From a bacterium (GTDB taxonomy: Bacteria; Pseudomonadota; Gammaproteobacteria; GCA-002705445; GCA-002716945), in NCBI GenBank assembly GCA_029979505.1, contig JAPOHH010000001.1, positions 55,034-119,033 of the forward strand: 64,000 bases of DNA, in the 5' to 3' direction. This document shows positions 1-63,931 of the stretch, piece by piece. The position numbers were made by a program, and so were the translations under genes. Every line of letters begins with the position of its first letter. Position 1 is the first letter of the stretch. Under the pieces are notes generated by a model. It did not search any database, was not told where the DNA came from, and was given only the letters and a program-made list of their open reading frames with translations.

Positions 1-1
1 T

Positions 2-340
2 AATACATATGTAGGTCAAAACGGCATTCTTTTATCTGGTGGTCAAAAACAGAGAATCGCACTAGCCAGAGCTATATTAAAAGATTCACCAATTTTATTA
101 CTCGATGAGGCTACCAGTGCACTGGATTCCGAATCTGAATCAATTATCCAAGAATCTATAAATACACTTTCTACAAATAAAACTACCTTAGTTATTGCTC
201 ATAGACTATCTACTGTAATTAGTGCAGATAAAATTATAGTTATTGATAATGGTGAGATTATAGAAACAGGTACTCATGAAGATTTATTAAATAGTAATGG
301 CGTGTATTCCTCTTTGTTTAACTCACAATTTAAAAAATAA
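2..340 (+). CDS. msbA: Lipid A export ABC transporter MsbA, C-terminal fragment (5' end outside window)
   Basis: Frame-2 translation contains the ABC signature ...[16 protein letters not shown]... and Walker [13 protein letters not shown]. Stop at 338-340 abuts the lpxK start, matching msbA-lpxK-kdsB synteny. Confidence 0.8.
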
Positions 341-47951: not shown

Positions 47952-49133
47952 CTATATTTTTCTATCATTTAATTGAGACATAAATATATATGTCATGAAA
48001 ACTAAAAATATAATCGCCTGGTGATGAGCAAATAGAGATTGAGTCATCATATAGCCAAAGCCTGAAATAACTGTTATCACTCCTAAATGTGCAAACACAG
48101 TTTTATTTCTAAGAAAAATTACAAGAATATATATAAATACTAACAAGAAAGAGGAAAATACAAACACTCCATATTTAACAAAAATATCCAGATATTCATT
48201 ATGTGCATGATCATGATTGGTAATGTTAATTTTATCTCTCGCAATTTTATTAGTAATTTCTTTTTTAAAATTTTGTGCTCCAATACCTAGATACATATAT
48301 TTTTCAATTTGATTAAGTGAGAATTTAAAATAATATAATCTTTCATTTTCTGATACATTATCATCCGTAGAATTTTCAATATTATTAAAATCAATAGTTC
48401 TTACAGATTCAAACAAAAGGTAAATACGGTCCGATATTGGTGTGGTAGTAATAAGAGCTGAGCTAATAATTAATATAGAAAATATAAATATCTTACTTTT
48501 TTTATTAAAAAGTATTATGAAAGGTAAGCAGAAAAATAAACCTACTAACGCCCCTCTTGTTCCAGTATAAAATACTAAGTACAAAGAAAGTAAAACAAAA
48601 AAAGTTAAAAGTATCTTATGTAAATATCTTTTTTGATAATTATAAATCACCAAAAGGTATAGAGCCAATGTCATCAACATATTCCCATATGTTAAGACTA
48701 CACTTGAGGATCCGGCAAACCGTAAATCTAAGTTACCTGTAAAGACATGCGCTATAAACAACGCAGAACCAAGTAGAACAGATAAATAGATTGCATATTT
48801 TAAGTCATCAAGAGTTATCTTAAATTGTTTCATTAAGAGGTATATTGGAAACAATAAGAGAGGACGAGTATAATTATCAATTTCATGGAGAGGTGTACTA
48901 TGAATTATCGAGCTAATAATGATAAATGATGTAAATAGAAGTAAGAATGATAGTAAGTATTTATCACTATCATATAAGGTATACTTACCTCTTAGTAAAT
49001 AAAATATACTAATCAGTAGAAGTAATATAAGCAAGAAATTAGCTATTTCTCTTACAAAAAATGTAGCCGGAATAAATGATAAGATTAATAATTTTAAGAC
49101 ATTCGAATAAGTTAATGATGGAATTTTATTCAT
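47952..49133 (-). CDS. O-antigen ligase/polymerase family membrane protein (Wzy_C-like)
   Basis: Polytopic membrane protein with FYTGTRGALVG in a periplasmic loop, typical of the O-antigen ligase family. Confidence 0.5.
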   Translation of the reverse strand: MNKIPSLTYSNVLKLLILSFIPATFFVREIANFLLILLLLISIFYLLRGKYTLYDSDKYLLSFLLLFTSFIIISSIIHSTPLHEIDNYTRPLLLFPIYLLMKQFKITLDDLKYAIYLSVLLGSALFIAHVFTGNLDLRFAGSSSVVLTYGNMLMTLALYLLVIYNYQKRYLHKILLTFFVLLSLYLVFYTGTRGALVGLFFCLPFIILFNKKSKIFIFSILIISSALITTTPISDRIYLLFESVRTIDFNNIENSTDDNVSENERLYYFKFSLNQIEKYMYLGIGAQNFKKEITNKIARDKINITNHDHAHNEYLDIFVKYGVFVFSSFLLVFIYILVIFLRNKTVFAHLGVITVISGFGYMMTQSLFAHHQAIIFLVFMTYIFMSQLNDRKI

Positions 49134-49168
49134 TTTCTAATTATATACTATAATATTAAATTGATTTT

Positions 49169-50311: not shown

Positions 50312-51362
50312 ATTCATAAATAAAATTATCTTCACTAAATTTTTTTGAATTCTCTTTACAATCATAAAACATATTTTTAGCTTTTTGAGAATCAAGATTT
50401 TCGACGGCAATTTTAATATCTTTAATTGTTGGTTCCTCATCTAGAATTATACCAGTTACTTCATGCTTTATAATCTCAACAATACCTCCGCTTTTAGAAA
50501 TTATTACTGGTTTTCCATGAGCATTAGCTTCTGCTGCTGACATACCAAAATCTTCATTTTTTGGTATATAAACGCAAGCAATTGATTGATTAATCAGTTC
50601 TTGTAATTCGTTATCTACAAGCCATCCAGTAAATTTAATATTTTCTTTTGCAATTCTCTTAAGAGTTGAAAGTTCTGATCCACCAGATGCAACAATAAGT
50701 TGTTTATCTGGCATTTCATTAAATGCTTTAATAATTAGATCTACTCTCTTATACTTTTCAAGTCTTCCAATGGATAAATAATATCCTTTATTATCATTTT
50801 TTAAATTATTAGACTGTTTGATAGGTGGATATAAAACATGAGCATCAAGGTTAGTATGTTCTTTTATAGTTCTTTTAGAATGCATGGAATTTGTAAGTAT
50901 ACAGTCCATCTTATGTAGATTTAGTAAATATAATCTTTTATATATAGAAAAGGCTAATTTAACAAAAGGTCTTAGTAAATAATTGAATCTATTGAGATAG
51001 TTTTCATTCATTTTATATATAAATCTTGGGAGTGTATGGCAATAATAAATCTTTTTACCTTTTTTTTGATATACAGAATTTAAGATTGAGAAAACGCCAC
51101 TATAGATGACTACATCATAATTATTTATATTTTTTATTTTAAATAAAAATCTTAAAAATACTTGTATAACCCTAGGTATTAACGGCAGGTTACATAATAC
51201 ATCTACTTTATCGAGACCATCTGAGTATATATAGTTTTTATTTATCCATCCAACAATTATTTTTGCTTGAATTTTATTTTTCAAGATTGTAACAAGTTTT
51301 TCTGCTCCTCCATTAACGTGAAAGTAATCATGAAGAATAAGAACATTTTTAATTTTATTCAT
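50292..51362 (-). CDS. Glycosyltransferase family 4
   Basis: EDFGMSAAEANAHGKPVI motif. Confidence 0.75.
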   Translation of the reverse strand: MNKIKNVLILHDYFHVNGGAEKLVTILKNKIQAKIIVGWINKNYIYSDGLDKVDVLCNLPLIPRVIQVFLRFLFKIKNINNYDVVIYSGVFSILNSVYQKKGKKIYYCHTLPRFIYKMNENYLNRFNYLLRPFVKLAFSIYKRLYLLNLHKMDCILTNSMHSKRTIKEHTNLDAHVLYPPIKQSNNLKNDNKGYYLSIGRLEKYKRVDLIIKAFNEMPDKQLIVASGGSELSTLKRIAKENIKFTGWLVDNELQELINQSIACVYIPKNEDFGMSAAEANAHGKPVIISKSGGIVEIIKHEVTGIILDEEPTIKDIKIAVENLDSQKAKNMFYDCKENSKKFSEDNFIYEFINYLN

Positions 51363-52944
51363 TTTCTTGAATAAACTCTTTTTTATTTATTATGCCCTCG
51401 CATATTAAATCTAATCCATTATCATTTCCGGGTAATAATTCGCTAGTTTTAGTGACATTTAGACCAAACGGAGAAAAGTATTTCGAGTACTTAATTGATT
51501 TAAGTTTTATCATTCTTTGAAAGAAAATATAGTATGCAAATTTTTTTGCTTTAATAATTAAATCGTCACTCAATATTTTACTATATGGTAGCATATCTAG
51601 CTGTTTTTTATATTCATTAACCGAATCCACATCTATTGTAAATCCTTTATTACGCGCCCAAGATTCTCCTGCTACAATAACTGGTTTACCTGTACAGGAA
51701 ATTTCTATTGCCATTTTTGTACCATAAACAATACAACTATCACTTATTTCAACAAGATTATATGTTGAAATATTACTTGATGCTTGAACTATAAATATAT
51801 TCTTTGGAATCGTTTTATATTTTTTTATGATTTCTTCATATACACTTTGATTCGATGGGACGGTACCTAAAATCTCTCCGGGGTGTATCCTTATAACTAG
51901 TTGAGTCTTCTCATTTTTTTTAAAATAATCAATAGTATAAAAAAGCCAATCAAGCATCGATTTAAATATATGTCCTTTGAAATGCAGTTGAGCATCCCAC
52001 AAAACATTCGTAAGAAGTGTTACGATTGGTTTTTTTTGATCAATACCAAGAGAACTATACATATCTTTATTTAGGGATTTATTTTGAAAGGAAATCCAAT
52101 CATTTGTTCCTGTTTTTCTGCTATTTAGATAATTCATAAGCTTTATGTTCTTTTCTAAGCACCATTTCATTCGAGTCCAATTATTATCATCAGTAAGAAT
52201 TGTTCTGTGATATGTATCATTATGACTAAATAAAACAGTTCCTTTTCTATAAGATGGTCCCCAATTAATCACATGAATATTTTTCTTTCTACATACGTCT
52301 CCAATTATTCCTTGAGGAACATAAATTCCATGATGAAATACTACGCTTGTGAAATTGTATGTATTGGTTATATTATCAATAACTCTTTTTGTTAGTTCAG
52401 ATGCTTTCTTATATTTTTTTAATATTTGATTATGTATAGGGCCATTAAGTGTACCTCTTCCGAGATATCTCAGTGCACCAGCTCGTGCATGTTCATCAAT
52501 ACTGATATTTATTTCATGATTACTGTGATAATTATAATCACTATATTTTAAAACTTCTATACCAAGAGAATCATACATTTTTTTTGAATGATGGTATGAT
52601 GAACTACATATCGATTTGTTTCCTTCTAAAAGAAATCTTTTTTCATTTAACCAGTAAGATTCACATTCTTGACATGCATCAATAAGACCATCATTTAAAA
52701 GAATTTTTACTGATACACCTCTTAATGTTAATGCAATTGCTAATAAACTTTCAAAAGAGCTACATGGCCATAACCCACCGGTACTTGTTGCTATAAGAAT
52801 TTTTGATTCAGAAGAATTAACTACCCCCGCATCTTTGATAACTTTATCCCAATTAAATCTTGCAGATGTATAAGGCCTTATTTTTCTTAAAACAAATTCA
52901 TATAAAAAACTTTTTCTTATTTTTTTTGTTATTGAATTAGACAT
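51355..52944 (-). CDS. Putative polysaccharide biosynthesis transferase with R-x-HP motif (capsule KpsS/KpsC-like or TagF-like GT-B; family uncertain)
   Basis: VIRIHPGE followed by ...ISDSCIVYGTKMAIEISCTGKPVI, resembling the HP motif and C-terminal region of Capsule_synth/Glyphos_transf families (from memory). Confidence 0.35.
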   Translation of the reverse strand: MSNSITKKIRKSFLYEFVLRKIRPYTSARFNWDKVIKDAGVVNSSESKILIATSTGGLWPCSSFESLLAIALTLRGVSVKILLNDGLIDACQECESYWLNEKRFLLEGNKSICSSSYHHSKKMYDSLGIEVLKYSDYNYHSNHEINISIDEHARAGALRYLGRGTLNGPIHNQILKKYKKASELTKRVIDNITNTYNFTSVVFHHGIYVPQGIIGDVCRKKNIHVINWGPSYRKGTVLFSHNDTYHRTILTDDNNWTRMKWCLEKNIKLMNYLNSRKTGTNDWISFQNKSLNKDMYSSLGIDQKKPIVTLLTNVLWDAQLHFKGHIFKSMLDWLFYTIDYFKKNEKTQLVIRIHPGEILGTVPSNQSVYEEIIKKYKTIPKNIFIVQASSNISTYNLVEISDSCIVYGTKMAIEISCTGKPVIVAGESWARNKGFTIDVDSVNEYKKQLDMLPYSKILSDDLIIKAKKFAYYIFFQRMIKLKSIKYSKYFSPFGLNVTKTSELLPGNDNGLDLICEGIINKKEFIQENE

Positions 52945-52962
52945 TTATGTATAGTCTATTTT

Positions 52963-54030
52963 TTATTTAAAAAGATAAGTATCAATTTGTTTATTACATA
53001 ATTCAGAAATATCAACTTTATCAATATAACCTTTATGCCAATTAACAATATTTTCAATAGTCTTTTTTAATTTCCATTTTGGATGCCACTGCAAATATTT
53101 TTTTGCTTTTTCATTATTTAACATCAACAATGATGCTTCGTGCGGATGCTTACCATCCTGATTACATATTTCAATTTCAGCCCCGTATGATTTAACTATC
53201 AAAGATGCCAACTCATATACAGAACAGTTATTCTCATCATCAGGACCAAAGTTCCACCCGCCTGAAAATTTTTTAGGATCTTTATATAACTTTTCTGCTA
53301 ATTTTAAGTATCCCGATAAAGGTTCTAGTACATGTTGCCAAGGTCTTGTTGAATTAGGATTTCTTATATCCAACGAATTATTTTTTTGACATGATTGTAA
53401 AATATCAGGTACTAGACGGTCATCAGACCAATCACCGCCACCTATTACATTACCTGCTCTAGCAGATGCAAGACCTACTTCATTGATACTATAATAAGAT
53501 TTCCAAAATGAATTTGTTATTAATTCAGAACAAGCTTTGCTGCAGCTATACGGGTCGTGTCCACCCATCCTGTCGTTTTCAGTATATGGAACATTAGTTT
53601 CATGATTTTCATAGCATTTATCAGATGTAATATTTATAAATGCTTTCAGTGATTTACACGACATAGATGTTTCTAGTAGATTAACTGTTCCCATGATATT
53701 AGTTGAATACGTGCTTACAGGATCTTGATATGATTTCCTGACAATTGCTTGTGCTGCCATATGAATAATGATTTCAGGCTTTGTATCGCTAATAAGATTC
53801 TTTACAGATTCATAGTTTGATAAATCACCAATATAGGAATTTATTTTTTTACCAATCAGGGATAGTTCATATAAATTAGGTTTTTTAATTGGATTCAAAG
53901 AAAATCCAGATACATTAGCTTCAAGTTTATTAAGAAGAATTGTTAACCATGAACCTTTAAATCCCGTATGACCAGTTATTAAAACATTTTTATTTTTCCA
54001 AAAGTCTTTATCTACTACCATACTTTCCAT
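52963..54030 (-). CDS. rfbG: CDP-glucose 4,6-dehydratase
   Basis: VLITGHTGFKGSWL Rossmann motif, YxxxK in DPYSCSKAC, and overall RfbG-like sequence. Confidence 0.85.
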   Translation of the reverse strand: MESMVVDKDFWKNKNVLITGHTGFKGSWLTILLNKLEANVSGFSLNPIKKPNLYELSLIGKKINSYIGDLSNYESVKNLISDTKPEIIIHMAAQAIVRKSYQDPVSTYSTNIMGTVNLLETSMSCKSLKAFINITSDKCYENHETNVPYTENDRMGGHDPYSCSKACSELITNSFWKSYYSINEVGLASARAGNVIGGGDWSDDRLVPDILQSCQKNNSLDIRNPNSTRPWQHVLEPLSGYLKLAEKLYKDPKKFSGGWNFGPDDENNCSVYELASLIVKSYGAEIEICNQDGKHPHEASLLMLNNEKAKKYLQWHPKWKLKKTIENIVNWHKGYIDKVDISELCNKQIDTYLFK

Positions 54031-54827
54031 TTAGCTTTTCTATTATCCCACATGTTGTCTAGTAAGTTTTTATCTCTTAGAGTGTCCATTGGCTGCCAAA
54101 AATCTTTATGTATATATGCGGATAATTGTCCTTCACTTGCAATTTTTTCTAATGGCTCCTTTTCCCAGATTATCTGATCACCGTCAATATAGTCTAGCAC
54201 TTTTGGTTTGAGAACAAAGAAACCGCCATTGATGTAACCATTATCAGAAACAGGTTTTTCAATAAACGATTCAACTTTATCGCTATCAATTTTTAAAGAT
54301 CCAAATCGTCCTGGTGGATTTACTGCGGTAACTGTTGCTAACCTATTTGACTTAGTATGAAAATCAATTAATTTTGAAATATCTACATTTGATAAACCGT
54401 CACCATATGTAAAGCAGAAGTCATCATCACCTATAAATTTTTTTACAGCTTTAAGCCGACCGCCAGTTAATGTAGATTCGCCTGTATCTACTAAAGTAAT
54501 TTTCCAAGGTTCACTCTTATGGGCATGTATATTATGACTGTTATTTTCTAAATCAATTGTTAAATCAGAGACATGAAGAAAATAATTAAAAAAATATTCC
54601 TTAATTTGATATCCCTTATATCCACAACAAATAATAAATTCATTGATTCCATAATGGGAATATATTTTCATGATATGCCACAGGATGGGTTTTCCTCCTA
54701 TTTCTATCATAGGTTTAGGCTTGAGATTACTCTCTTCAGAGATTCTAGTCCCTAGACCACCAGCTAAAATAACGCATTTTTTAACGTGATTTGACAAAAG
54801 AGTACCCCTCTTGATGTTGCTCTGCAT
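54015..54827 (-). CDS. rfbF: Glucose-1-phosphate cytidylyltransferase
   Basis: KCVILAGGLGTRISEE matches the RfbF N-terminus. The true start may be the TTG about 14 codons in (AAGAGGGG SD upstream) rather than the first ATG. Confidence 0.85.
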   Translation of the reverse strand: MQSNIKRGTLLSNHVKKCVILAGGLGTRISEESNLKPKPMIEIGGKPILWHIMKIYSHYGINEFIICCGYKGYQIKEYFFNYFLHVSDLTIDLENNSHNIHAHKSEPWKITLVDTGESTLTGGRLKAVKKFIGDDDFCFTYGDGLSNVDISKLIDFHTKSNRLATVTAVNPPGRFGSLKIDSDKVESFIEKPVSDNGYINGGFFVLKPKVLDYIDGDQIIWEKEPLEKIASEGQLSAYIHKDFWQPMDTLRDKNLLDNMWDNRKAKWKVW

Positions 54828-54897
54828 ATGCAGTTCATCACGATTATAGACTAAATTATCAGTAAATAGTACGGAAAATGACTGTGATTAAATATAA

Positions 54898-55905
54898 TTA
54901 GAAAATATAACCATTTTCATTATGAATTTTTTTTAAAAAATTGATTTGTTGATCTTCTATATTTGCATCCCTATGAATATTCTTAACAGTTCTCATATGT
55001 AAGGCAAAAGGCTTCTTATTATATAGAATTTCTTCTGGACGCATGTATTCATACTCTTTTGGATATATTTTTTTTATAAATGAGTATGTATTTTGATAAT
55101 TAATTCTTGGGATAACACCTAATATTTCTGGTAGCCAATTTCTTAATATTCTTGGAAATGTTTTTCTAACCTTACACAAATCATTATAATTAAATATATT
55201 CAATTGATTATTAAATAGAAAGACAGGGATATTATTACTCTTAGTATAATCTCTCAAATAGGATAAAGTATCCTTAGAAATATTTAATTTATAAATTGTA
55301 AACAATGGTACTAATAGAAGACTAGCTGGATATCTAAGAATAGTTTTTTGTAGATTAATAATGAGATATTTTAATTTCATTGCTAATTTACGTTTTTTTT
55401 CACTTACATTTAATTCAGGGGAAAATGATAGAAGGTCACGATTGATATTTGCAAAATTTATTGAAAAGAAATGGGGAGCAACAAAATCCTTCCATTTACT
55501 TGTTGAAGATAAATCCCATCGCATTCCTACTACTGGATAATTATTGTGAAGATTTAAAATAATATTTGAAAAATTCATATCAATAAATAAAAAATCAGGA
55601 TCTATAAATGTAACTACCTTGTTTTTATGATTAATTGAATCTAATCCAAAAAGTAAATTCGCAGAGTGATGATATGATCCCTCATCGTAGGGAGTAAAAA
55701 AAGAAGATATTCCTCTAATGAAAGTTATTTTTATATTATCTTGATTATTTATTAAGACTTTTGCATGTTCATATAATTCAGGATTAATTATTAAATTAAA
55801 TATAAGCTCATTATCAAATTTACAGTTAGCAAGAGAGCTAAGATGGAAATTAACTAAATTCAACTCAGATTTTTTATATATTGAAATAATAAAATTATGC
55901 TTCAT
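54898..55905 (-). CDS. Uncharacterised putative transferase, paralogue A (no recognisable family)
   Basis: Clear paralogue of 57099-58136: shared motifs SFFTPYDxGSYHH, IDPDFxFI, DFVAPHFFSI, FALHMRTVKN. Confidence 0.5.
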   Translation of the reverse strand: MKHNFIISIYKKSELNLVNFHLSSLANCKFDNELIFNLIINPELYEHAKVLINNQDNIKITFIRGISSFFTPYDEGSYHHSANLLFGLDSINHKNKVVTFIDPDFLFIDMNFSNIILNLHNNYPVVGMRWDLSSTSKWKDFVAPHFFSINFANINRDLLSFSPELNVSEKKRKLAMKLKYLIINLQKTILRYPASLLLVPLFTIYKLNISKDTLSYLRDYTKSNNIPVFLFNNQLNIFNYNDLCKVRKTFPRILRNWLPEILGVIPRINYQNTYSFIKKIYPKEYEYMRPEEILYNKKPFALHMRTVKNIHRDANIEDQQINFLKKIHNENGYIF

Positions 55906-57133
55906 TTAATGTCATCAATACTCTATCAGCTTGATCTTTCAATAAATTATTTATATAAGCAGGATCAAACCATATACGATTATTTATTTCATATTCTATT
56001 TGGTAAATATTAATATCTTTCTCACAATATACAATATAAGGATGAAGTGCGAGTGGAACTCTTAATGCAATCTCTGGTCTCATGATAACGTAACAACCTG
56101 CCATGATTGCTTCTAGAATTTTTGTTTTAAAACCCCAACCAGAACTATCTAGTACAAATAATGCTGTATATGAATGAAGTATAGATAATGGAGATTTAAG
56201 ATCACCTACATTCAGCATCCTTTCTTTACTTTTAAGGTGTTTAATATAAGGACCTGTATAAGATATTTTTATATCTTTAGGAAATTTATCAACAAACCCT
56301 GATAGATACATTATTTCTTGGTCAAGTCTTTCATTTTGAATATATGATGATCCATAAATAAGGTATTTTTGATTTGAACCATTATGCTCTCTTGGCTGAA
56401 TTTCTGACAGAAGCTCTTCAGTGATATAATATGGTACGTACTTAATTTTTCTCATTCGTACGTCATGAGAGCTAAAATGTAACTTATTCCAATAATTCAC
56501 AATATCATATTCACTTATTGAATGGATTTCATCAGCATATTTCAGTGCAATACAATCAGAAATATAGCATTTTAGACCAGTATAGTACTGCATCTTCCAT
56601 TCAAATCTATGAAAACCCTCTGCATTATGTGACCTGAAAATAATTTTTACATCCGGATAAGCTTTTTTTAGATACTTTATTGTTAATCCGTATGACCCTG
56701 GAACATCAAGGTATATCGTATGTATAGATAAATTATTCTCTTTTATTAATTTAAGAAATACAACTTTTAAAAGAGCTTTAAGTATTCGATCTCCTCGAAT
56801 TGTTTTAAGAGATATAAAAGATATATTATTTCTCTTAAAATAATCTACTCTAGTTTTTATGTCTTTTGAACTACCAAGATAGTTCAATGATGGTACAGAG
56901 GTATTTTCAGGGACAATATGTAAGATATATTTTTTTGAACTTCCATTGAATTTTTCCCAACACTTCTTTTTCTTATAAAACCACATGGCTTTGATAGAGG
57001 TAGGTAAAAAATATTTTAATCTAAATAGTATTGGATTATGACTTATACTTAAGAATTTATAAATTTCATATAATAGACGTCTAATTTTACCTACAATGCT
57101 AGAAATCATGTAATTCACCCTCAAAAATACCAT
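55895..57133 (-). CDS. GT-B fold glycosyltransferase (GT4-like C-terminal domain)
   Basis: C-terminal GWGFKTKILEAIMAGCYVI resembles the GT-B nucleotide-sugar binding E-x7-E region. Confidence 0.5.
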   Translation of the reverse strand: MVFLRVNYMISSIVGKIRRLLYEIYKFLSISHNPILFRLKYFLPTSIKAMWFYKKKKCWEKFNGSSKKYILHIVPENTSVPSLNYLGSSKDIKTRVDYFKRNNISFISLKTIRGDRILKALLKVVFLKLIKENNLSIHTIYLDVPGSYGLTIKYLKKAYPDVKIIFRSHNAEGFHRFEWKMQYYTGLKCYISDCIALKYADEIHSISEYDIVNYWNKLHFSSHDVRMRKIKYVPYYITEELLSEIQPREHNGSNQKYLIYGSSYIQNERLDQEIMYLSGFVDKFPKDIKISYTGPYIKHLKSKERMLNVGDLKSPLSILHSYTALFVLDSSGWGFKTKILEAIMAGCYVIMRPEIALRVPLALHPYIVYCEKDINIYQIEYEINNRIWFDPAYINNLLKDQADRVLMTLNEA

Positions 57134-58136
57134 TTAAAGAAAAATAGTTTTTTAAAAAATTTAATTGAATTTCTCCAGTACCATCTTTACCTATTATTTT
57201 ATAAAAATTTTTTACAGTTCTCATGTGTAAAGCAAATAGTTTATTATCATAACTGATTTCTTCAGGTCTCATTAGTTTGTATTCACCTGGATTTGTATGT
57301 TTAATAAACGAGTGTTCTCTTGATTTTGTTTCTTTTGGAATATATCCAATTAATTTTGGCAACCAAAATCTAGAATAAATTGGAAATGCCTCTTTCATCT
57401 TGTCTAAAGAATTCAAATCAAATTCATTTATATTATTTTTGAATAGAAATATTGGAATATTATTCTTCTTAATATAATTTCGCAATACTGAAAGTGTATC
57501 ATAAGAAGATTTGATTCTTAGCCATGCATAAATTGGTAGAATGAGTAAATTTGATATTTTTCTCAGTAAATAGTTCTGCTTAAATTGATTAATTATATGT
57601 TCTAGATATTCATATTTAATTCTTTTTTTATTTGTAATTTCTAATTGTGGATTAAATATAACCCCGTCTGGACTAAGTTTTCTAAAATCTATTGAAAAGA
57701 AATGTGGAGCAACGAAATCCTTATGCTTATTATAATTAATATGTCCCCATTCCATACCTACTATATTATATCCACTGTCATGGAGTTTAGAAATTATCTC
57801 AGAGAAGTTTGTGTTTATAAAAAAAAAGTCAGGATCTATATAAGTAACAATCTTATTTTTTACATTTGCCTGCAATGTTCCAATTCTAAGATTTGCTGCA
57901 TGGTGATATGATCCTACATCGTATGGAGTAAAAAATGACGCAACACCTTTAATAGTCTCAATATTATCAATTTGATTAAGTTCATTATAAGCAAAGTCAA
58001 ATATTTCAGGATTAGCAACAATAAAAAACTTTAATTTTTTTTTTGTTTCAATTAAATTTAAATAATTAACATGAAACCTTATCAAAGGTATTTCTGATTT
58101 TTTATAAGTTGAAATTATTATATAATGGTCGCTCAT
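57099..58136 (-). CDS. Uncharacterised putative transferase, paralogue B
   Basis: Same conserved blocks as 54898-55905. Confidence 0.5.
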   Translation of the reverse strand: MSDHYIIISTYKKSEIPLIRFHVNYLNLIETKKKLKFFIVANPEIFDFAYNELNQIDNIETIKGVASFFTPYDVGSYHHAANLRIGTLQANVKNKIVTYIDPDFFFINTNFSEIISKLHDSGYNIVGMEWGHINYNKHKDFVAPHFFSIDFRKLSPDGVIFNPQLEITNKKRIKYEYLEHIINQFKQNYLLRKISNLLILPIYAWLRIKSSYDTLSVLRNYIKKNNIPIFLFKNNINEFDLNSLDKMKEAFPIYSRFWLPKLIGYIPKETKSREHSFIKHTNPGEYKLMRPEEISYDNKLFALHMRTVKNFYKIIGKDGTGEIQLNFLKNYFSLNGIFEGELHDF

Positions 58137-58153
58137 GGTTATTGAAAACCATA

Positions 58154-59413
58154 CTACTGTATAACAATATTTGATTCAATTATTTCTGAAGGACGTCTAT
58201 TTTTTAAAAATATTGATGATCTGTCAACATCCTCCTTATTTGCCATAGAATTTAGCAAATCAATAAGGTTTTCAGGTTTTACAGGAGCTATAATGCTCTC
58301 GTCAATCATTTGCTTAAAATGAGGTGCATTTGATTGTGTTTGATCAATACTATTATCAATAATTGCTATAGATTTTACACCTAAAGCATAACTGTCAATC
58401 ATTGCTGATGTGTTTAGTCCAAAAACTAAGTAAGATTTCAAAATTATCTCTGACAAATAAAGCTCAGATTGCTCGCTATGTGTTAATCCAACATTATCAT
58501 TATCAAATATAATTGACTTTGGTAGTCGTTCTTTAGAAATTAATTTAGCTGGATGAGAACGCACAATTAAACTGTATTCAGATAATTTACTCTTCTTGAT
58601 TGTTTCATATAAAAATAAAATATTTTTATTTTCATTACTTTTAATATTAGCTGAGGAACCAATATAAAGAATTTGTTTATCTTTTTTTATATCAATATTA
58701 TGCGAAATCCATTTTTCAAAAAATAATGATCCAGATATTATAATCTTTTCATTATTAATATGATGAATCTTCTTACAATATTCTTGTTGAAGTTTATTCC
58801 AAACATATACATAGTCAATTTGATTTAAAACCAGAGATTTAGTTGTTAAATTATCCCAAGTGAGTATCGGGTAATGAACTTTTAATCCTAAACATTTTGC
58901 AGCTAAAATATATTCATTCTCATTAGAAAATCTAAGATTAGCAGCTGTTGATATCATACAGTCATAGTTCATTGTTTTAATTCTCTCTTTAATAGATTTA
59001 TCGACAGGCAGGAGAAGATATAAATTATAAAATAAGCTGAATAGTATTTTTGATTTTAAAATCCTCTCGAATGTCTTATATTTACACAGGTATCTAATTA
59101 TTTTAGGCTGGTACAATATCCATCTCGTAATATAGAATTTCGTCGTTTCCTTTCTTCTTAAATATGACATCAATGTGATAAATTCGAATAAATATTTTTT
59201 CATATTGAAAAACAATCCACTACCAGAAATCATGGAATCATATTTAATTCTAAGCCCTTTTAAAAGTTTATGTTTTTTTAATTCAGTTATGTTTTTGGAT
59301 GACCAGGTTTCATCTAGATAAAGCGTACAGTCATTATTTATCGAAAGTTTACTTATCAGTTTGTATACATATGGTACATGGTCATATGATCTGATTGTAA
59401 TAAGTATTTTCAT
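58154..59413 (-). CDS. Putative TagF/KpsS-like transferase with R-x-HP motif
   Basis: VRSHPAKL followed by ...SYLVFGLNTSAMIDSYALGVKSIAI, resembling the Glyphos_transf/Capsule_synth catalytic region (from memory). Confidence 0.35.
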   Translation of the reverse strand: MKILITIRSYDHVPYVYKLISKLSINNDCTLYLDETWSSKNITELKKHKLLKGLRIKYDSMISGSGLFFNMKKYLFEFITLMSYLRRKETTKFYITRWILYQPKIIRYLCKYKTFERILKSKILFSLFYNLYLLLPVDKSIKERIKTMNYDCMISTAANLRFSNENEYILAAKCLGLKVHYPILTWDNLTTKSLVLNQIDYVYVWNKLQQEYCKKIHHINNEKIIISGSLFFEKWISHNIDIKKDKQILYIGSSANIKSNENKNILFLYETIKKSKLSEYSLIVRSHPAKLISKERLPKSIIFDNDNVGLTHSEQSELYLSEIILKSYLVFGLNTSAMIDSYALGVKSIAIIDNSIDQTQSNAPHFKQMIDESIIAPVKPENLIDLLNSMANKEDVDRSSIFLKNRRPSEIIESNIVIQ

Positions 59414-59419
59414 TTAATA

Positions 59420-60562
59420 TTAAGATTCGGTTACGGTAACAGACGAACCTACAAAACCATCTGGAGGAACGCTACCAATACTTCTTTCATTCATACATGA
59501 TCGATCATTAGTCATTATCATAGGTACGGGTACCTTCCATACTTTTATATCATCAACAAATAATGTCAGAAACAAATAATAATTAATTTTTCTAAATTTT
59601 ATGTCATCAACATTGAATGAAAATGTTGTTGGTTTTGATAGTAAAAATTCATGATTATAAGAAAATAATCTAAAGTGACCAAGATTTTTTCGATCATGCG
59701 CTAGAGACCACCCAAGAGAACATTTTGTGTTTTTAAGTCCGTTGTTATCAATTAATATTGATAGGGATAAATTTGCATGTTCAATGTCAATGTCAGTAAA
59801 CGAATAAGAGATATCACTAATAGTAGGTGTAGCATTATTATCTCTAGCTGAATCATTATAAATAGGTGCATTAACTCTCTTTAAAAAAGGAATTATCGGC
59901 AGTGAGACCTCTTCATTATCTGGGTTAATGATAGATATAGTCTGAAAACCATATAGTTCATTGTTATGAACATTTTGATCAAGGTTTGATAATAATATAT
60001 ATTTATTATCCTTATTAAGCTTATCTAAATGTCTAGAATCAAAACCTGTTAGTATTATTGTTTTATTAGGTATACTTAAAGATAATATAAAAAATAATAA
60101 ATCACGATACAATTTCTTCTGATCAACATCTGCAGCTTTAGTACTGTAATCAAATTCTTTTTTTAATTTTTGTATATATTGTTCAACTTCATCAGGAATT
60201 TCATCAAAAATATCTTTCACTATGTAATCAAGCATGACATGTTCCCTATAAAGGGGTCTGAAAAATTTTGGCGCTTTAGCATGTATTGATATATATTCAA
60301 AATTTATATTTTTTTTATAATGCCCTGCTCTATCATGAATAGCATTGACAACTAAATCATAATATGACTTGTTTTTCATAACATATATTTTATTACTATC
60401 ACTTGGTAGGTTAATTTTGTAAGTTAAAAAGTCTTTATGGTAAATGTCTTTTGTAAATAAAGAATTAAAAAGTATATTTCTTCTTCTTTTGTGGATTTTG
60501 AGTTTTTTTGTTTCAAATAACTCTACTGACAATGTATCAGACGATTGAATCTTTATAGGCAT
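59420..60562 (-). CDS. Hypothetical protein (380 aa), no recognisable motifs
   Basis: Long ORF embedded in the polysaccharide operon with 26-nt overlap onto the upstream gene. No Walker motifs seen. Confidence 0.5.
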   Translation of the reverse strand: MPIKIQSSDTLSVELFETKKLKIHKRRRNILFNSLFTKDIYHKDFLTYKINLPSDSNKIYVMKNKSYYDLVVNAIHDRAGHYKKNINFEYISIHAKAPKFFRPLYREHVMLDYIVKDIFDEIPDEVEQYIQKLKKEFDYSTKAADVDQKKLYRDLLFFILSLSIPNKTIILTGFDSRHLDKLNKDNKYILLSNLDQNVHNNELYGFQTISIINPDNEEVSLPIIPFLKRVNAPIYNDSARDNNATPTISDISYSFTDIDIEHANLSLSILIDNNGLKNTKCSLGWSLAHDRKNLGHFRLFSYNHEFLLSKPTTFSFNVDDIKFRKINYYLFLTLFVDDIKVWKVPVPMIMTNDRSCMNERSIGSVPPDGFVGSSVTVTES

Positions 60563-61268
60563 ATTTAATTTCCTTATCTACTGATTTATAAAAGTATAAC
60601 GATAGAGCTATTAATATAATAGTGTGAATTTTAAGAATCATCAGCTTCTCAAGAAAAGCTATGTCATAAAAGAATATAATCTCTATAAAATTAAAGATAG
60701 AAAAAAAGGCAAAACTATCAGATATTAAAATATTTATTTTCAAGAAAAGCAAAAGTATTATTGGAACAAACTGAGGTGCATTTACAAAATCTATAGCATT
60801 TATAGACAATGTCCCTATCTTTACGAAAATTGGCATGGTAATTACATACAATAAAAGTGGATAAAATAAATGGTCTGTGTATGAAACATCTACAAATATA
60901 GAAAGAAGTACATATAGGATATTCAAAAAGAACAAACTTAGAATAAAATCACATAAATTATAAATTAGTGCGTCATTAATTGAAAATGATGTTAGTTTAA
61001 TATACCTTCGCATTCTACGAGCATTAGTTACAATATTAATTGTACAGTACCAATAAATAGTCCATCCAAATGTCATAGTTAGCAAAGTATTAATGTTCTC
61101 AATATCAGGAAATACACCTTGTATCATAAGAAAATATGACCCAAACATAAGGAGTGGCTTGAAAATATACCAAAACCATCCAGAAATTGTTAGGTCATTC
61201 CAATAAAATGTTTCAAGTTTATAAGCTATAAATCCTTTATTTGTCATTTTCGTGTAAATATTTTTCAA
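60537..61268 (-). CDS. Putative ABC-2 type (Wzm/KpsM-like) polysaccharide-export permease
   Basis: 243 aa, about 6 TM. N-terminal block LTISGWFWYIFKPLLMFGSYFLMIQGVF resembles the KpsM/TagG signature region. Confidence 0.4.
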   Translation of the reverse strand: MKNIYTKMTNKGFIAYKLETFYWNDLTISGWFWYIFKPLLMFGSYFLMIQGVFPDIENINTLLTMTFGWTIYWYCTINIVTNARRMRRYIKLTSFSINDALIYNLCDFILSLFFLNILYVLLSIFVDVSYTDHLFYPLLLYVITMPIFVKIGTLSINAIDFVNAPQFVPIILLLFLKINILISDSFAFFSIFNFIEIIFFYDIAFLEKLMILKIHTIILIALSLYFYKSVDKEIKYAYKDSIV

Positions 61269-63183
61269 TACAAAAAGTTAAATTAAAGCTGTCTAGATTT
61301 GCATGTTTTAAGACTAGTTCATTTTCTCCACATTTAGGGAAATCATCTAATCCAATAGCTTCAATTCTTGGGGCATTTGCTCCCCAATCAATAGATGTTA
61401 TCCGATCTCTTAATCCACCAATTAGATAATGATTTTCAAGGACAATAATAAATTTTATATTTTCAGTATAATTTTTTAACCATGGTCGTTTTACTTCATT
61501 TAACCATGGGAAATTTATAACTTTAATATTAATATGTCTTTCAGTTTTATACTTGATTGCTACAGAATGCGCAAGATTACATGCTATTGGGCCATATGCA
61601 ATTATTGCGATTTCTTCACCATCATCTATAACTAATCCTTTACCTGCATTCAGTCTAATATCTTTTGGATAGTCAAAGTTAATTTCTATTGGCAGAGAAC
61701 AAAGTCTAATATAAGTACTATATTCTGTTTCTGGACTGATTGCCCAATTTAAAACATTATTTAATTCTTCTTCACAACATGGTTCAACTATTCTGAGACC
61801 TGGGATTGCTGCAAGCGATGATATGTCTCGAACCGCTTGATGAGAGTGTCCTGGCCCTCCTGGTAAAACTCCAGCTAGAGAACCTACATAGATAATTTTT
61901 TTTCTTTCAGTTGCATTGTTATAAATTTGTTCGTTAGGTCTTGTAGATAAAAAGCAAGAAAAAGAATGTACAATAGGCAAATAACCACTTAAGGATAGTC
62001 CACCAGCTGTTGAGACCATATCTTGCTCTGCAATACCACACTCAATAAATCTTTCTGGAAATTTATTTTTAAATGGGATGAGACCCGTATCAAGAATTAA
62101 ATCTGCATCTAAAGCTACAATCTTATTATTTTTTTTTGCATGCTCAACTAATTGTTCACTGTATGCTGCAATTAAATTATCCGGTTTTTTTTGCGTAACA
62201 GTGTTCTTTTTTTTCTTTTCTGTTGAACTAATAGAGATTTTATCTAGATTGAATTGATCTTGATAGTGTTCTACTGTTTCTATAAGTTCATTAGCAGCAT
62301 TTAAATATTCTTCAGGTGTTGGTGCTCCGCTGTGATATTGATAATATTTATCATTAGGTTTTGCAGTGTGCTCCATGAATGAAACACCCTTGCCTTTAAT
62401 TGTATTCGCGAGTAAAAATTTTGGTCCTGACTTTTCTTTTAATCTATCTATAGCATTTTCTAGTGATTCTAAGTCATTCCCATCACATTGATCTACATTC
62501 CAACCAAAAGATTTTACTTTTGATAAAATATCACCAAGATCAGAAACTTCGCTAAGTAAAGTGTCAGATTGCAGTTTATTATGATCAACAATTACAAATA
62601 GTTCATCCATATTATAATTCACAGCTGAAACTAAGGATTCCCAAAATTGACCCTCTTGAAGCTCGCCATCGCCTGTAAGTACAAATACTCTGCCAGAGAT
62701 TTTAGATAGCCTTCTTGCAAAAATCATACCCTTAGCTTTAGATATACCCATTCCCAACGATCCAGTATTTGTTGCTATACAGGGTGTGTTGATGTCTGGA
62801 TGTCCAGGCAGACCATTAATTTTACGGAGTTTATCAATTAGATGGAAATCAAGATAACCATGAGCAATTAGCATTGAATAGAATCCAGGTGCATCATGTC
62901 CCTTAGAACTAAAGAATATATCTCCGTCGACTGTCGGGTTATTGTTATGGAAATTAAGCTCTTTTAGAAACAACCAAGAAAATATATCTAAACTACTAAA
63001 GCTACTACCTATATGGCCTGAGCCAGAATTTGAAATCATATACAATGTGTTGAGTCTACAAAGGTCAGCTATAATTTTTGCTTTTAATCTTAGGTCAATC
63101 TTTTGTGAGAGAATGTATTGAAATATATTTTCTCCAATAAAATATAATGTTCCGTCAATTGCTTTTCCTATTTTATCTCCCAT
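61237..63183 (-). CDS. Transketolase, fused N-terminal (ThDP-binding) and C-terminal (Pyr/TKC) halves
   Basis: N-terminal half has SKGHDAPGFY, GLPGHPD and GDGELQEGQFWE; C-terminal half has FIECGIAEQDMVSTAGGLS. Both halves lie in a single 648-aa ORF. Confidence 0.85.
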   Translation of the reverse strand: MGDKIGKAIDGTLYFIGENIFQYILSQKIDLRLKAKIIADLCRLNTLYMISNSGSGHIGSSFSSLDIFSWLFLKELNFHNNNPTVDGDIFFSSKGHDAPGFYSMLIAHGYLDFHLIDKLRKINGLPGHPDINTPCIATNTGSLGMGISKAKGMIFARRLSKISGRVFVLTGDGELQEGQFWESLVSAVNYNMDELFVIVDHNKLQSDTLLSEVSDLGDILSKVKSFGWNVDQCDGNDLESLENAIDRLKEKSGPKFLLANTIKGKGVSFMEHTAKPNDKYYQYHSGAPTPEEYLNAANELIETVEHYQDQFNLDKISISSTEKKKKNTVTQKKPDNLIAAYSEQLVEHAKKNNKIVALDADLILDTGLIPFKNKFPERFIECGIAEQDMVSTAGGLSLSGYLPIVHSFSCFLSTRPNEQIYNNATERKKIIYVGSLAGVLPGGPGHSHQAVRDISSLAAIPGLRIVEPCCEEELNNVLNWAISPETEYSTYIRLCSLPIEINFDYPKDIRLNAGKGLVIDDGEEIAIIAYGPIACNLAHSVAIKYKTERHINIKVINFPWLNEVKRPWLKNYTENIKFIIVLENHYLIGGLRDRITSIDWGANAPRIEAIGLDDFPKCGENELVLKHANLDSFNLTFCIEKYLHENDK

Positions 63184-63931
63184 TACAACTCCTATGTTTT
63201 TTAAATTTAGGCAAAATTACATGTTTTGTGCGAATATAATGTTCAGCTAATAACCAGTCTTCGTGAGTATTTATATCAAAACCTTCAAGAGCTTTTGTAA
63301 TAAATGGCAAAATTAATGATCCAGAAATACTTTTTTTAACAACAAGAGTTTTAAGCCATGCAATCTCAAGACTAGCATTTTGAACATAGATTTTTGGAAG
63401 TAGTGCATATTGATTGCTATGCCATGGTGTCCCATTAATAGTTTTATTTAAAATTGGAGTCATATACTTCTTACCAAGTGACCACATTTTTCCTGGATGT
63501 TGTCCACATAGTTCAACAGCCCTAAGAGAATCAAATTTTAAACTTTTATTAAATAATTTAAATGCTCTTTTAATAGTTTTTTCTGTTCTAAATGGACTGG
63601 TAGGTCTTAATATACTATACACATTAAAGTCATATCCTTCGTTTTGTAAAACATCTGTAGTAAATTTTACCCATTCATAATCAGGTGAAGTTGATGATGC
63701 TATTTTTTTTGGTCTAAAAATAACTTCAGCACCATATTGGCTGGCGATATCAGCATAATATTCGGAGTCAGTTGAACAGATAACACGATTAAAACATTTA
63801 CATTCTAATGCAGAGTAAATGGTATAGGCGAGCAATGGACGGTTCTTTAGTAATTTTATATTTTTATCAATAATTCTTTTTGATCCTGATCTTGCAGGAA
63901 TAAGTGCTATCGCTTTTATGTTTTTACTCAT
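63173..63931 (-). CDS. CMP-sugar (acylneuraminate/nonulosonate/Kdo-type) cytidylyltransferase, NeuA/KdsB superfamily
   Basis: AIALIPARSGSKRIIDKNIKLL...ILRPTSPFR is typical of NeuA/PseF-type cytidylyltransferases. Confidence 0.8.
   Translation of the reverse strand: MSKNIKAIALIPARSGSKRIIDKNIKLLKNRPLLAYTIYSALECKCFNRVICSTDSEYYADIASQYGAEVIFRPKKIASSTSPDYEWVKFTTDVLQNEGYDFNVYSILRPTSPFRTEKTIKRAFKLFNKSLKFDSLRAVELCGQHPGKMWSLGKKYMTPILNKTINGTPWHSNQYALLPKIYVQNASLEIAWLKTLVVKKSISGSLILPFITKALEGFDINTHEDWLLAEHYIRTKHVILPKFKKHRSCNGR

What the first reader, a model, noticed from the sequence alone, without database searches (positions are those of the whole stretch)
59420..61268. ABC-2-like export permease with no ATPase partner, followed by a 380-aa motif-less orphan
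The 243-aa polytopic protein resembles Wzm/KpsM/TagG permeases. In such systems the Walker-motif ATPase (Wzt/KpsT/TagH) is normally the next gene. Here the overlapping downstream ORF (59420-60562) has no P-loop, ABC signature or any motif I can recognise. Either the ATPase is encoded elsewhere, the permease assignment is wrong, or the orphan is a novel partner, for example a substrate-recognition or terminal-modification module akin to the Wzt C-terminal domain that has become a separate protein.
Basis: partly seen in the sequence, partly recalled or inferred. Interest (0 to 1): 0.5.

Follow-up and report, generated by a model that had tools for sequence, protein, structure and literature searches.

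The report
Diverged Wzm permease with motif-less partner
In a surface-sugar gene cluster of a marine bacterium, a very diverged polysaccharide-export channel gene is followed, where its ATP-burning motor gene should be, by a conserved protein with no ATPase features and no relatives, so either the motor is encoded elsewhere or this exporter works in an unusual way.

Summary
Both ORFs are real and under purifying selection (dN/dS 0.07 and 0.13 against a Tara Oceans relative). The membrane protein is most likely 236 aa, starting at the ATG at 61247. No Pfam or NCBIfam model hits it. A profile of 22 canonical Wzm permeases built here does match it specifically: hhalign probability 82%, E 1e-5 over TM1-TM5. 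Reversed, shuffled and unrelated membrane-protein controls fail, and it keeps the G-x2-W-x4-P motif of TM1. I rate it a highly diverged Wzm/KpsM-type ABC-2 permease (about 0.8).

The cluster has no Wzx flippase. Related clusters share eight genes with it and carry canonical Wzm plus Wzt(+Wzt_C). No Wzt-type ATPase lies in 84 kb surveyed; the three ABC ATPases found are TupC, MsbA and a LolD-like gene.

The 380-aa ORF overlaps the permease by 26 nt and has the position and size of Wzt, and possibly its two-domain layout. It has no Walker or signature motifs and no detectable similarity to Wzt. An exhaustive search of 1.84 billion proteins found only fragments of its own marine family. AlphaFold models were unusable.

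The best reading (0.4) is a non-ATPase cytoplasmic partner of the permease. The main rival (0.3) is an ATPase encoded elsewhere, with the orphan an unrelated enzyme.

The parts
60537..61247 (-). Highly diverged Wzm/KpsM-type ABC-2 permease.
   Evidence: ORF list. The 236-aa form appears in all relatives and gene calls. Wzm HMM 10.4 bits, reached by 0 of 2,500 shuffles; hhalign 81.9%, E 1.1e-5, residues 20-169 aligned to Wzm 49-203. dN/dS 0.072.
61155..61181 (-). Codons 23-31, GWFWYIFKP: start of TM1, carrying the G-x2-W-x4-P motif (the 'LG-loop'/TM1 motif of Wzm and KpsM).
   Evidence: Same spacing as the invariant L-G-x2-W-x2-L-x-P columns of the KpsM/Wzm alignment A4. Aligned to that motif independently by hhalign and by BLASTP against the L011 Wzm (E 0.007). 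The LG-loop is described in PMC9445017.
60996..61025 (-). Codons 75-84, NARRMRRYIK: basic cytoplasmic TM2-TM3 loop, the position of the coupling helix in ABC-2 permeases. Invariant between the two lineages.
   Evidence: Invariant columns in alignment A2. Aligned to the post-TM2 region of the Wzm profile. The docking role is inferred, not tested.
59420..60562 (-). Orphan CDS, 380 aa, soluble, in the Wzt slot. No ATPase motifs and no relatives outside its own marine family.
   Evidence: dN/dS 0.132. No signal against Wzt profiles.
59918..60562 (-). Orphan N-terminal half (aa 1-215). About 92% identical between lineages, with mixed strand/helix content in the low-confidence model and only 3 Gly.
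   Evidence: Alignment A1. dN/dS 0.098. Secondary structure of the pLDDT-33 model (low confidence).
59420..59917 (-). Orphan C-terminal half (aa 216-380). It has a more variable segment (216-310) and a strongly conserved beta-rich tail (311-380), which is also conserved in the TARA fragment P0008.
   Evidence: dN/dS 0.279 (216-310) and 0.05 (311-380). P0008 is 32% identical over aa 319-377. Only generic beta-sandwich matches from the poor model.
60537..60575 (-). Permease/orphan junction: 26-nt coding overlap (60537-60562), with an AAGGA Shine-Dalgarno sequence at 60571-60575, 8 nt upstream of the orphan's ATG. Consistent with translational coupling.
   Evidence: Sequence read directly.
61237..63931 (-). 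Upstream operon genes within the window: CTP_transf_3 cytidylyltransferase (63173-63931) and a fused transketolase-like gene (61237-63183). These are the last two genes of a conserved NeuB/HAD/SDR/ALDH/cytidylyltransferase/transketolase sugar-acid cassette.
   Evidence: Pfam. The cassette recurs in L009, L010 and L011, and without the HAD gene in L092 and L093; its upstream part for this population is on L094-L096.
51355..52944 (-). p529, a Capsule_synth-like (KpsS/KpsC-like) transferase. It links this cluster to clusters that carry canonical Wzm/Wzt.
   Evidence: 42%, 37% and 37% identical (E 1e-142 to 1e-121) to the 567-574-aa proteins of L010, L011 and L092. Weak PF05159 hits.
47952..49133 (-). 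Wzy_C (O-antigen ligase-type) polytopic protein at the far end of the cluster. Apart from the permease it is the only polytopic protein in the cluster.
   Evidence: Pfam PF04932, E 2.4e-20. Hydropathy survey.

Best explanation
The 236-aa protein is a highly diverged Wzm/KpsM-type ABC-2 permease. It would form the inner-membrane channel of an ABC-transporter-type (Wzx-independent) surface-glycan cluster in a low-GC marine gammaproteobacterium. The 380-aa ORF that overlaps its 3' end is most likely co-translated with it and acts as its cytoplasmic partner, in the place normally taken by Wzt.

Inferred model, none of it shown: the conserved N-terminal half docks on the permease's invariant basic TM2-TM3 loop, and the beta-rich C-terminal half, with its more variable segment, recognises the finished, probably ulosonic-acid-bearing, glycan, as Wzt_C does. 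The orphan cannot be a P-loop ATPase. Energy would then come from an ABC ATPase encoded elsewhere, or export is not directly ATP-driven. Whether the orphan descends from Wzt or displaced it is unresolved.

Shown: both genes are real and constrained, the permease is Wzm-like, there is no local ATPase, and the orphan lacks motifs and relatives. Inferred: physical partnership, glycan recognition and the energy source.
For: Permease is Wzm-like.
- Custom Wzm HMM: 10.4 bits over residues 20-168, reached by 0 of 1,000 global and 0 of 1,500 local shuffles. The reversed sequence, TupB and Wzy_C all score negative.
- hhalign: 81.9%, E 1.1e-5 over 146 columns. Reversed or unrelated TM controls give 0.3% or less, and the best of 40 local shuffles gives 20%.
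- Reverse search: the four best of 1,491 locus ORFs are all the gene directly upstream of a Wzt.
- The permease is the top hit of 862 six-frame fragments for the Wzm HMM.
- The G-x2-W-x4-P motif of TM1 is present.

Context.
- The only polytopic proteins in the cluster are the permease and a Wzy_C protein, so there is no Wzx.
- Related clusters share the sugar-acid cassette, and three of the five examined (L010, L011, L092) also carry a close homolog of p529.
- L010 and L011 carry ABC2_membrane plus ABC_tran/Wzt_C.

Partnership.
- 26-nt overlap with a Shine-Dalgarno sequence.
- The pair is conserved together in two lineages and on six independent contigs with gene calls.
- Both genes are under purifying selection.
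- The orphan's 380 aa falls within the 358-491 aa range of 55 of 62 sampled Wzt proteins that have C-terminal domains.
- The N-terminal half is conserved and a segment of the C-terminal half is more variable.

No ATPase.
- Six-frame HMM search and Pfam annotation over 84 kb find none of the Wzt type.
Against: There is no direct evidence that the two proteins interact.

The orphan shows no similarity to Wzt NBD or Wzt_C: HMM -1.6 bits, reached by 244 of 1,000 shuffles, and hhalign P = 0.13, 0.16 and 0.55.

Its fold is unknown (AlphaFold pLDDT 33).

Other genes in this cluster (p419, p345, p412, p335) are also nearly unrecognisable, so 'unrecognisable' alone does not single out the orphan.

Only 84 kb of the genome could be searched for an ATPase.

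An ABC-2 exporter without its own ATPase has, to my knowledge, no precedent.

The permease match covers TM1-TM5 only, and no curated HMM detects it.
Confidence: 0.4

Rival explanations
1. The permease works with a canonical Wzt/KpsT ATPase encoded elsewhere in the genome. The orphan is a cluster-specific cytoplasmic enzyme, for example a glycosyltransferase or a chain-terminating or modifying enzyme, and only happens to sit next to wzm.
For: The orphan has no similarity to Wzt. Four neighbouring genes are comparably diverged, with only faint GT-like hits. ABC NBDs are normally too conserved to become unrecognisable: the window's own TupC scores 65-68 bits on a Wzt-derived HMM. Only 84 kb of the genome was searchable.
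Against: wzm and wzt are adjacent in canonical systems (established knowledge; also L011 and the loci). No such gene lies in 84 kb. The orphan overlaps the permease by 26 nt. The permease itself is far more diverged than the neighbouring enzymes (profile-level only, against 37-55% identity for them), which would be unexpected if it still docked a canonical Wzt. The orphan has no GT, methyltransferase or kinase HMM hit and no paralog in the cluster.
Confidence: 0.3
2. The orphan is a true descendant of Wzt: a pseudo-NBD plus cap-binding domain that has lost Walker A/B, the signature motif and the H-loop. This is a claim about origin and is a sub-case of the best explanation.
For: It has the same slot and size as Wzt and a possibly similar two-domain layout. 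The secondary-structure order in the model (strand 59-62, helix 65-78... helix 144-161, strand 169-172, helix 176-184, strand 189-192, then beta-rich from about 280) resembles that of an NBD followed by a beta-sandwich (low confidence). With permissive settings, hhalign produces one co-linear end-to-end alignment (8-338 against 4-370).
Confidence: 0.2
3. The Wzm resemblance is spurious or irrelevant. The pair is some other membrane-protein plus soluble-protein module, for example a glycan-modifying system.
For: No Pfam or NCBIfam hit. The AlphaFold model is unusable. The protein is shorter (236 aa) than the sampled Wzm proteins (251-321 aa), and its C-terminal third is not confidently aligned.
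Against: The profile match is specific, co-linear and survives every control. The TM1 motif is conserved. Topology and cluster context fit Wzm.
Confidence: 0.1

Closest known systems
WzmWzt O-antigen ABC transporter (Aquifex aeolicus, PDB 6OIH/6M96/7K2T; E. coli O9a; Klebsiella O12/Raoultella with a Kdo-cap-binding Wzt domain, PDB 5HNO)
   Same: The permease has about six TM segments, a short N-terminal amphipathic segment and the G-x2-W-x4-P start of TM1, and it matches a Wzm profile. The gene sits in a Wzx-less glycan cluster with an O-antigen-ligase-type gene. The next gene overlaps it and is Wzt-sized. Sister clusters with the same sugar-acid cassette and p529 homolog use Wzm plus Wzt with Wzt_C.
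   Different: The downstream protein has no Walker A/B, signature motif or H-loop, and no ABC_tran or Wzt_C similarity. The permease is shorter (236 aa against 251-321) and is invisible to curated HMMs. No ATPase was found in 84 kb.
KpsMT group 2 capsule exporter (PDB 8TSH and related entries), with the KpsS/KpsC beta-Kdo transferases
   Same: KpsM is an ABC-2 permease with the same TM1 motif. The cluster encodes two Capsule_synth-like (KpsS/KpsC family) proteins, p529 and p512, and a CMP-ulosonic-acid pathway.
   Different: No KpsT, and no KpsE or KpsD was recognised. KpsT has no C-terminal domain, whereas the orphan is 380 aa. A Wzy_C ligase-type gene points to a lipid A-core-linked glycan rather than a capsule.
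TarGH/TagGH teichoic-acid exporter (PDB 6JBH, 9CFL)
   Same: The same ABC-2 (type V) exporter class, with an NBD that carries a C-terminal extension in TagH.
   Different: It is a Gram-positive system. Here LpxK, KdsB and MsbA-type genes show an LPS-producing Gram-negative organism. TarH/TagH are canonical ATPases.

Membership tests
ABC-2 permease, Wzm/KpsM/TagG type | Match to curated family HMMs (Pfam ABC2_membrane and relatives; NCBIfam) | tested here: not met
   No hit at E<=0.1, or at E<=10.
ABC-2 permease, Wzm/KpsM/TagG type | Significant, co-linear profile similarity to bona fide Wzm proteins | tested here: met
   22-sequence Wzm profile: HMM 10.4 bits, reached by 0 of 2,500 shuffles; hhalign 81.9%, E 1.1e-5, residues 20-169 against 49-203; all controls negative. 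Reverse searches pick out Wzm genes and the permease itself. This is weak in absolute terms.
ABC-2 permease, Wzm/KpsM/TagG type | N-terminal interface helix, LG-loop and TM1 motif (L-G-x2-W-x2-L-x-P) | tested here: met
   S22-G23-W24-F25-W26-Y27-I28-F29-K30-P31 keeps G, W and P at identical spacing. The N-terminal segment is only 19 residues, shorter than usual.
ABC-2 permease, Wzm/KpsM/TagG type | Six TM helices, N-in/C-in, plus re-entrant periplasmic helices between TM5 and TM6 | tested here: inconclusive
   Hydropathy and charge distribution fit six TM segments with a basic TM2-TM3 loop. The AlphaFold model has pLDDT 38.7 and Foldseek on it was meaningless. The TM5-TM6 region is not confidently aligned.
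ABC-2 permease, Wzm/KpsM/TagG type | Cognate ABC ATPase encoded adjacently | tested here: not met
   The next gene lacks all ABC motifs. No Wzt-like NBD in the 74 kb searched in six frames, and no ABC_tran annotation other than MsbA-type and LolD-like genes in a further 10 kb.
Wzt / KpsT / TagH nucleotide-binding subunit (for the orphan) | Walker A, Q-loop, signature (YSSGM), Walker B and H-loop; ABC_tran HMM | tested here: not met
   No motif by regular expression. No ABC_tran hit. Wzt-NBD HMM -1.6 bits, no better than shuffles. hhalign P=0.16.
Wzt / KpsT / TagH nucleotide-binding subunit (for the orphan) | Wzt_C carbohydrate-binding beta-sandwich at the C-terminus | tested here: inconclusive
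Wzt / KpsT / TagH nucleotide-binding subunit (for the orphan) | Gene immediately downstream of wzm, coupled to it; 360-490 aa when a cap-binding domain is present | tested here: met
   26-nt overlap with a Shine-Dalgarno sequence. 380 aa, against 358-491 aa in 55 of 62 sampled Wzt proteins.
Wzt / KpsT / TagH nucleotide-binding subunit (for the orphan) | RecA-like/ABC fold of the N-terminal domain | not testable with these tools
   Only near-identical homologs exist, so AlphaFold failed (pLDDT 33). Both prediction jobs are used.

The most novel reading that the evidence does not exclude
A Wzm-type polysaccharide channel whose nucleotide-binding subunit has been replaced by, or has degenerated into, a conserved protein with no ATPase motifs. 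That would be an ABC-2 exporter that is ATP-independent, or energised in trans, and that keeps a dedicated cytoplasmic glycan-recognition partner.
Probability: 0.25. Interest if true: 0.8.

Novelty: new variant of a known kind. Interest (0 to 1): 0.5.

Why it matters
ABC-2 (type V) exporters for O-antigens, capsules and teichoic acids are understood as obligate permease-ATPase pairs. A conserved, selected Wzm homolog whose Wzt slot holds a non-ATPase protein would either reveal a new way to gate or drive lipid-linked glycan export, or show that a polysaccharide permease can be served by a distant ATPase.

It also defines a new orphan protein family in an abundant group of marine bacteria. In addition, it flags a widespread six-gene sugar-acid cassette for which I found no matching paper in the library. 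If the ATPase is simply elsewhere, the finding reduces to an extremely diverged wzm plus an unknown cluster-specific enzyme, which is of modest interest.

Tried and rejected
1. By-eye alignment of the orphan to KpsT/TagH. I first placed 'VMKNKSYYD' at Walker A, 'LYRDL' at the signature motif and 'IILTGF' at Walker B. hhalign and BLAST proposed other registers ('MPIKIQSSD' or 'DYSTK' at the signature; 'KKLYRD' at Walker B). The registers are mutually inconsistent and all at chance level, so I rejected them as evidence.

3. A first 4-sequence NBD HMM and a 3-sequence KpsM/Wzm profile were too shallow.

4. A motif-masked Wzt HMM, meant to detect a 'motif-less NBD', has no power: the true NBD TupC scores only 0.5 bits.

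5. Scans for relatives of the orphan (genome and metagenome collections) and of the transketolase (genome collection only) found nothing.

6. The exact-sequence look-up of P0008 found no contig.

7. PADLOC and PHROGs gave nothing for either protein, so there is no sign of a defence or phage module.

8. Pseudogene or decay remnant: rejected by dN/dS of 0.07-0.13 at dS of about 0.65.

9. A hidden Wzt in another reading frame of the orphan region: rejected by the six-frame HMM search.

10. Literature searches for a described precedent or for the sugar cassette returned nothing relevant.
Full report
**1. Observation**

The window is about 30% G+C, and the glycan cluster is lower still at 26-30%. 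From 47952 to 63931 all but one of the genes are on the minus strand; the exception is the GT4 gene at 49169-50311.

The membrane protein is better started at the ATG at 61247, giving 236 aa. Every relative and every gene call uses that start, and the ATG overlaps the stop codon of the upstream transketolase-like gene.

The 380-aa ORF begins 26 nt before the permease stop codon. An AAGGA sequence lies 8 nt upstream of its ATG.

The permease has about six hydrophobic segments. It has acidic short loops, a strongly basic TM2-TM3 loop (NARRMRRYIK) and a Lys-rich C-terminus, which fits an N-in/C-in topology (sequence read directly). The orphan has no hydrophobic segment, no Walker A and no LSGG[QE].

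**2. Are the genes real?**

Orthologs occur on marine metagenome contigs from Great Barrier Reef nanopore assemblies, Tara scaffolds, and Logan and ENA Illumina contigs. The nanopore contigs carry frameshifts, which explains the truncated database entries such as P0005.

Against the Tara ortholog L004 (dS 0.63-0.80), dN/dS values are:

| Gene or region | dN/dS |
|---|---|
| Transketolase-like gene | 0.058 |
| Permease | 0.072 |
| Orphan, whole | 0.132 |
| Orphan aa 1-215 | 0.098 |
| Orphan aa 216-310 | 0.279 |
| Orphan aa 311-380 | 0.05 |

Both are therefore functional protein-coding genes in the annotated frames.

**3. The permease**

Curated libraries do not detect it: Pfam, NCBIfam, PDB sequences, PADLOC and PHROGs all give nothing. 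AlphaFold2 with the four available near-identical sequences failed (pLDDT 38.7), and Foldseek on that model was meaningless.

I therefore built my own comparison set. A metagenome scan seeded with a Wzt alignment returned 80 loci. From these I extracted 62 Wzt proteins and 19 adjacent Wzm proteins. I added the L011 Wzm and two PDB sequences recovered.

Against this 22-sequence Wzm profile:
- The permease scores 10.4 bits, one domain covering residues 20-168 against HMM positions 37-191.
- None of 1,000 global shuffles or 1,500 local-window shuffles reaches that score.
- The reversed sequence (-8.2), TupB (-6.6) and the Wzy_C protein (-23.6) all score negative.

hhalign gives probability 81.9%, E 1.1e-5, over 146 columns (residues 20-169 against 49-203). 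Reversed query, reversed template and three unrelated membrane proteins give 0.3% or less. The best of 40 local shuffles gives 20%.

The reverse tests agree. A permease HMM searched against 1,491 ORFs from the loci ranks four Wzm genes first. The Wzm HMM searched against 862 six-frame fragments of the window plus 10 kb ranks the permease first.

The invariant L-G-x2-W-x2-L-x-P of KpsM/Wzm corresponds to the 'LG-loop' and TM1 of the A. aeolicus structure (PMC9445017). In the permease it appears as S-G-W-F-W-Y-I-F-K-P with identical spacing. BLASTP against the L011 Wzm picks out the same stretch (E 0.007).

I conclude, at about 0.8, that this is a highly diverged Wzm/KpsM-type ABC-2 permease. 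It is shorter than usual (236 aa against 251-321 aa), and its last third is not confidently aligned.

**4. Context**

The window's source population is an LPS-producing marine gammaproteobacterium. Clusters at 90% identity carry the name 'MAG: Gammaproteobacteria bacterium', and the source contig is 230,597 bp. MsbA-type, LpxK and KdsB-type genes lie at and just before the window start. An assignment to SAR86 would be my inference only.

The cluster, read from contigs 99.9% identical to the window and from the window itself, contains in order:
- a DegT aminotransferase, an FdtA-like isomerase, an epimerase and ManC;
- p512, a methyltransferase, NeuB, a HAD phosphatase, an SDR and an ALDH;
- a CMP-sugar cytidylyltransferase and the fused transketolase-like gene;
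- the permease and the orphan;
- p419, p345, p412 and p335;
- a glucose-1-phosphate cytidylyltransferase-like gene and a 4,6-dehydratase-like gene;
- p529, two GT4 genes and a Wzy_C (ligase-type) gene.

p512 and p529 are paralogs (36% identical), as are p335 and p345 (48% identical). The orphan has no paralog in the cluster. Only the permease and the Wzy_C protein are polytopic, so there is no Wzx flippase.

The fused transketolase has thousands of homologs at about 55% identity. In all five contexts examined it sits in a NeuB/SDR/ALDH/cytidylyltransferase/transketolase cassette, and three of the five also have the HAD gene. In three of the five contexts (L010, L011, L092) a close homolog of p529 is also present (37-42% identity, E down to 1e-142/1e-145).

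Two of those three clusters, Methylobacter L010 and L011, show a canonical ABC2_membrane gene followed by ABC_tran+Wzt_C. L092 has the same gene order as L011 up to the point where the locus ends.

The window's cluster therefore belongs to a class that normally uses Wzm plus Wzt with a cap-binding domain. Wzt_C domains recognise the modified chain terminus (abstract of PMC9445017). One solved example binds a Kdo cap (5HNO, description).

**5. No ATPase**

A six-frame search with a Wzt-NBD HMM over the window plus 10 kb beyond its end finds only two hits. One is TupC; tupABC was identified. The other is the truncated ABC gene at 2-337, which corresponds to the MsbA-type gene.

The 10 kb beyond the window end has no ABC_tran annotation. 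The 10 kb before the window start has only the MsbA-type gene and a LolD-like ATPase next to a MacB_PCD/FtsX (LolC/E-like) permease.

**6. The orphan**

Word-indexed and exhaustive HMMER searches, the latter against 1.84 billion representative proteins, find only its own family: P0004 is identical, P0005 to P0007 are fragments produced by frameshifts, and P0008 is a TARA fragment 32% identical over the last 60 residues.

Against Wzt profiles there is nothing:
- Wzt-NBD HMM: -1.6 bits, reached by 244 of 1,000 shuffles.
- hhalign: P = 0.13 for the full length, 0.16 for the N-terminal half and 0.55 for the C-terminal half.
- An orphan HMM finds no Wzt among 1,491 ORFs.

A motif-masked HMM has no power even for a true NBD. 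A motif-less descendant of Wzt therefore cannot be recognised or excluded by sequence.

The N-terminal half has only three glycines in 215 residues. The K65-S66 pair that could mimic the 'GKS' of Walker A is Q-L in the sister lineage. A P-loop or Gly-rich nucleotide-binding site is therefore implausible.

**7. Interpretation**

Shown:
- a real, constrained and very diverged wzm-like gene;
- a real, constrained, lineage-restricted soluble protein translationally linked to it, in the position and with the size of Wzt;
- no Wzt-type ATPase in 84 kb.

Inferred: that the two proteins form a complex, that the C-terminal half reads the glycan terminus, and where the energy comes from.

I favour 'non-ATPase partner in the Wzt slot' at 0.4. 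The reasons are the gene overlap, the conservation of the pair, and the extreme divergence of the permease while the neighbouring enzymes stay 37-55% identical to homologs. That pattern suggests the transporter pair left the canonical constraint together.

The main rival (0.3) is an ATPase encoded elsewhere, with the orphan one more unrecognisable cluster-specific enzyme. Descent of the orphan from Wzt (0.2) is a sub-case that cannot be tested here. A spurious permease match (0.1) and pseudogenes (rejected by selection) are unlikely.

**8. Novelty and score**

The permease alone is a new, very divergent member of a known family. The pair is a new variant of a known kind of system if the partnership holds.

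Interest is 0.5. The anomaly is real and reproducible across populations, but a mundane explanation remains open, and the decisive data (the whole genome and a confident structure) were out of reach with these tools.

Noticed in passing
window 61237-63931 (-), continuing on L095:6206-12695; also L009, L010, L011, L092, L093: A conserved cassette, NeuB / HAD phosphatase / SDR / aldehyde dehydrogenase / CTP_transf_3 cytidylyltransferase / fused 640-660-aa transketolase-like protein, recurs in many bacteria. The HAD gene is absent in L092 and L093. The transketolase has thousands of homologs at about 55% identity, including in Methylobacter and Thiobacillus MAGs. It looks like a pathway to a CMP-activated ulosonic acid. 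A literature search of the library found no description.
   Followed up: partly
window 51355-52944 (-) and L095:3907-5445: p529 and its paralog p512 (36% identical) are soluble proteins with only a weak Capsule_synth (KpsS/KpsC-like) signal. p529 is 37-42% identical to 567-574-aa proteins in the Wzm/Wzt-bearing clusters L010, L011 and L092. These are probably the transferases for the cassette's sugar acid.
   Followed up: partly
window 54898-59413 (-): Four further genes are almost unrecognisable. p419 has a weak TIGR04396 'surface carbohydrate biosynthesis' hit. p345 and p335 are paralogs (48% identical) with faint GT2 signals around a DPD motif. p412 has a faint GT1 signal. None has a BLAST-level counterpart in the related clusters.
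   Followed up: partly
window 44072-46162 (-): A tupABC-like tungstate ABC importer (TupA 264 aa, permease 226 aa, ATPase 208 aa). Its ATPase is the only complete ABC ATPase in the window and is unrelated to the glycan cluster.
   Followed up: yes
window 1-2007 (+); L097: The window starts inside an msbA-type gene (its LSGGQ motif is at nt 32), followed by lpxK and a kdsB-like gene. A LolC/E-like gene plus a LolD-like gene lie further upstream. The organism therefore makes LPS.
   Followed up: yes
P0008 (TARA_133_SRF fragment, 66 aa): A partial protein 32% identical to the orphan's last 60 residues (shared motifs VWK-P-P and IG--P--GF) shows that more distant members of the orphan family exist in the ocean. 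Its contig could not be retrieved.
   Followed up: partly
L001-L003 (Great Barrier Reef 'pilon' contigs): These long-read contigs carry many frameshifts that split genes. Examples are the transketolase in L001 and L002 and the orphan in L001 and L003. This produces truncated database proteins (P0002, P0003, P0005-P0007) that could be mistaken for variants.
   Followed up: yes
window 47952-63931 against the rest of the window: The glycan cluster has a lower G+C content (0.26-0.30) than the housekeeping part of the window (0.30-0.36). The two sampled lineages differ at dS of about 0.6-0.8. Both observations are consistent with a hypervariable surface-glycan island.
   Followed up: no
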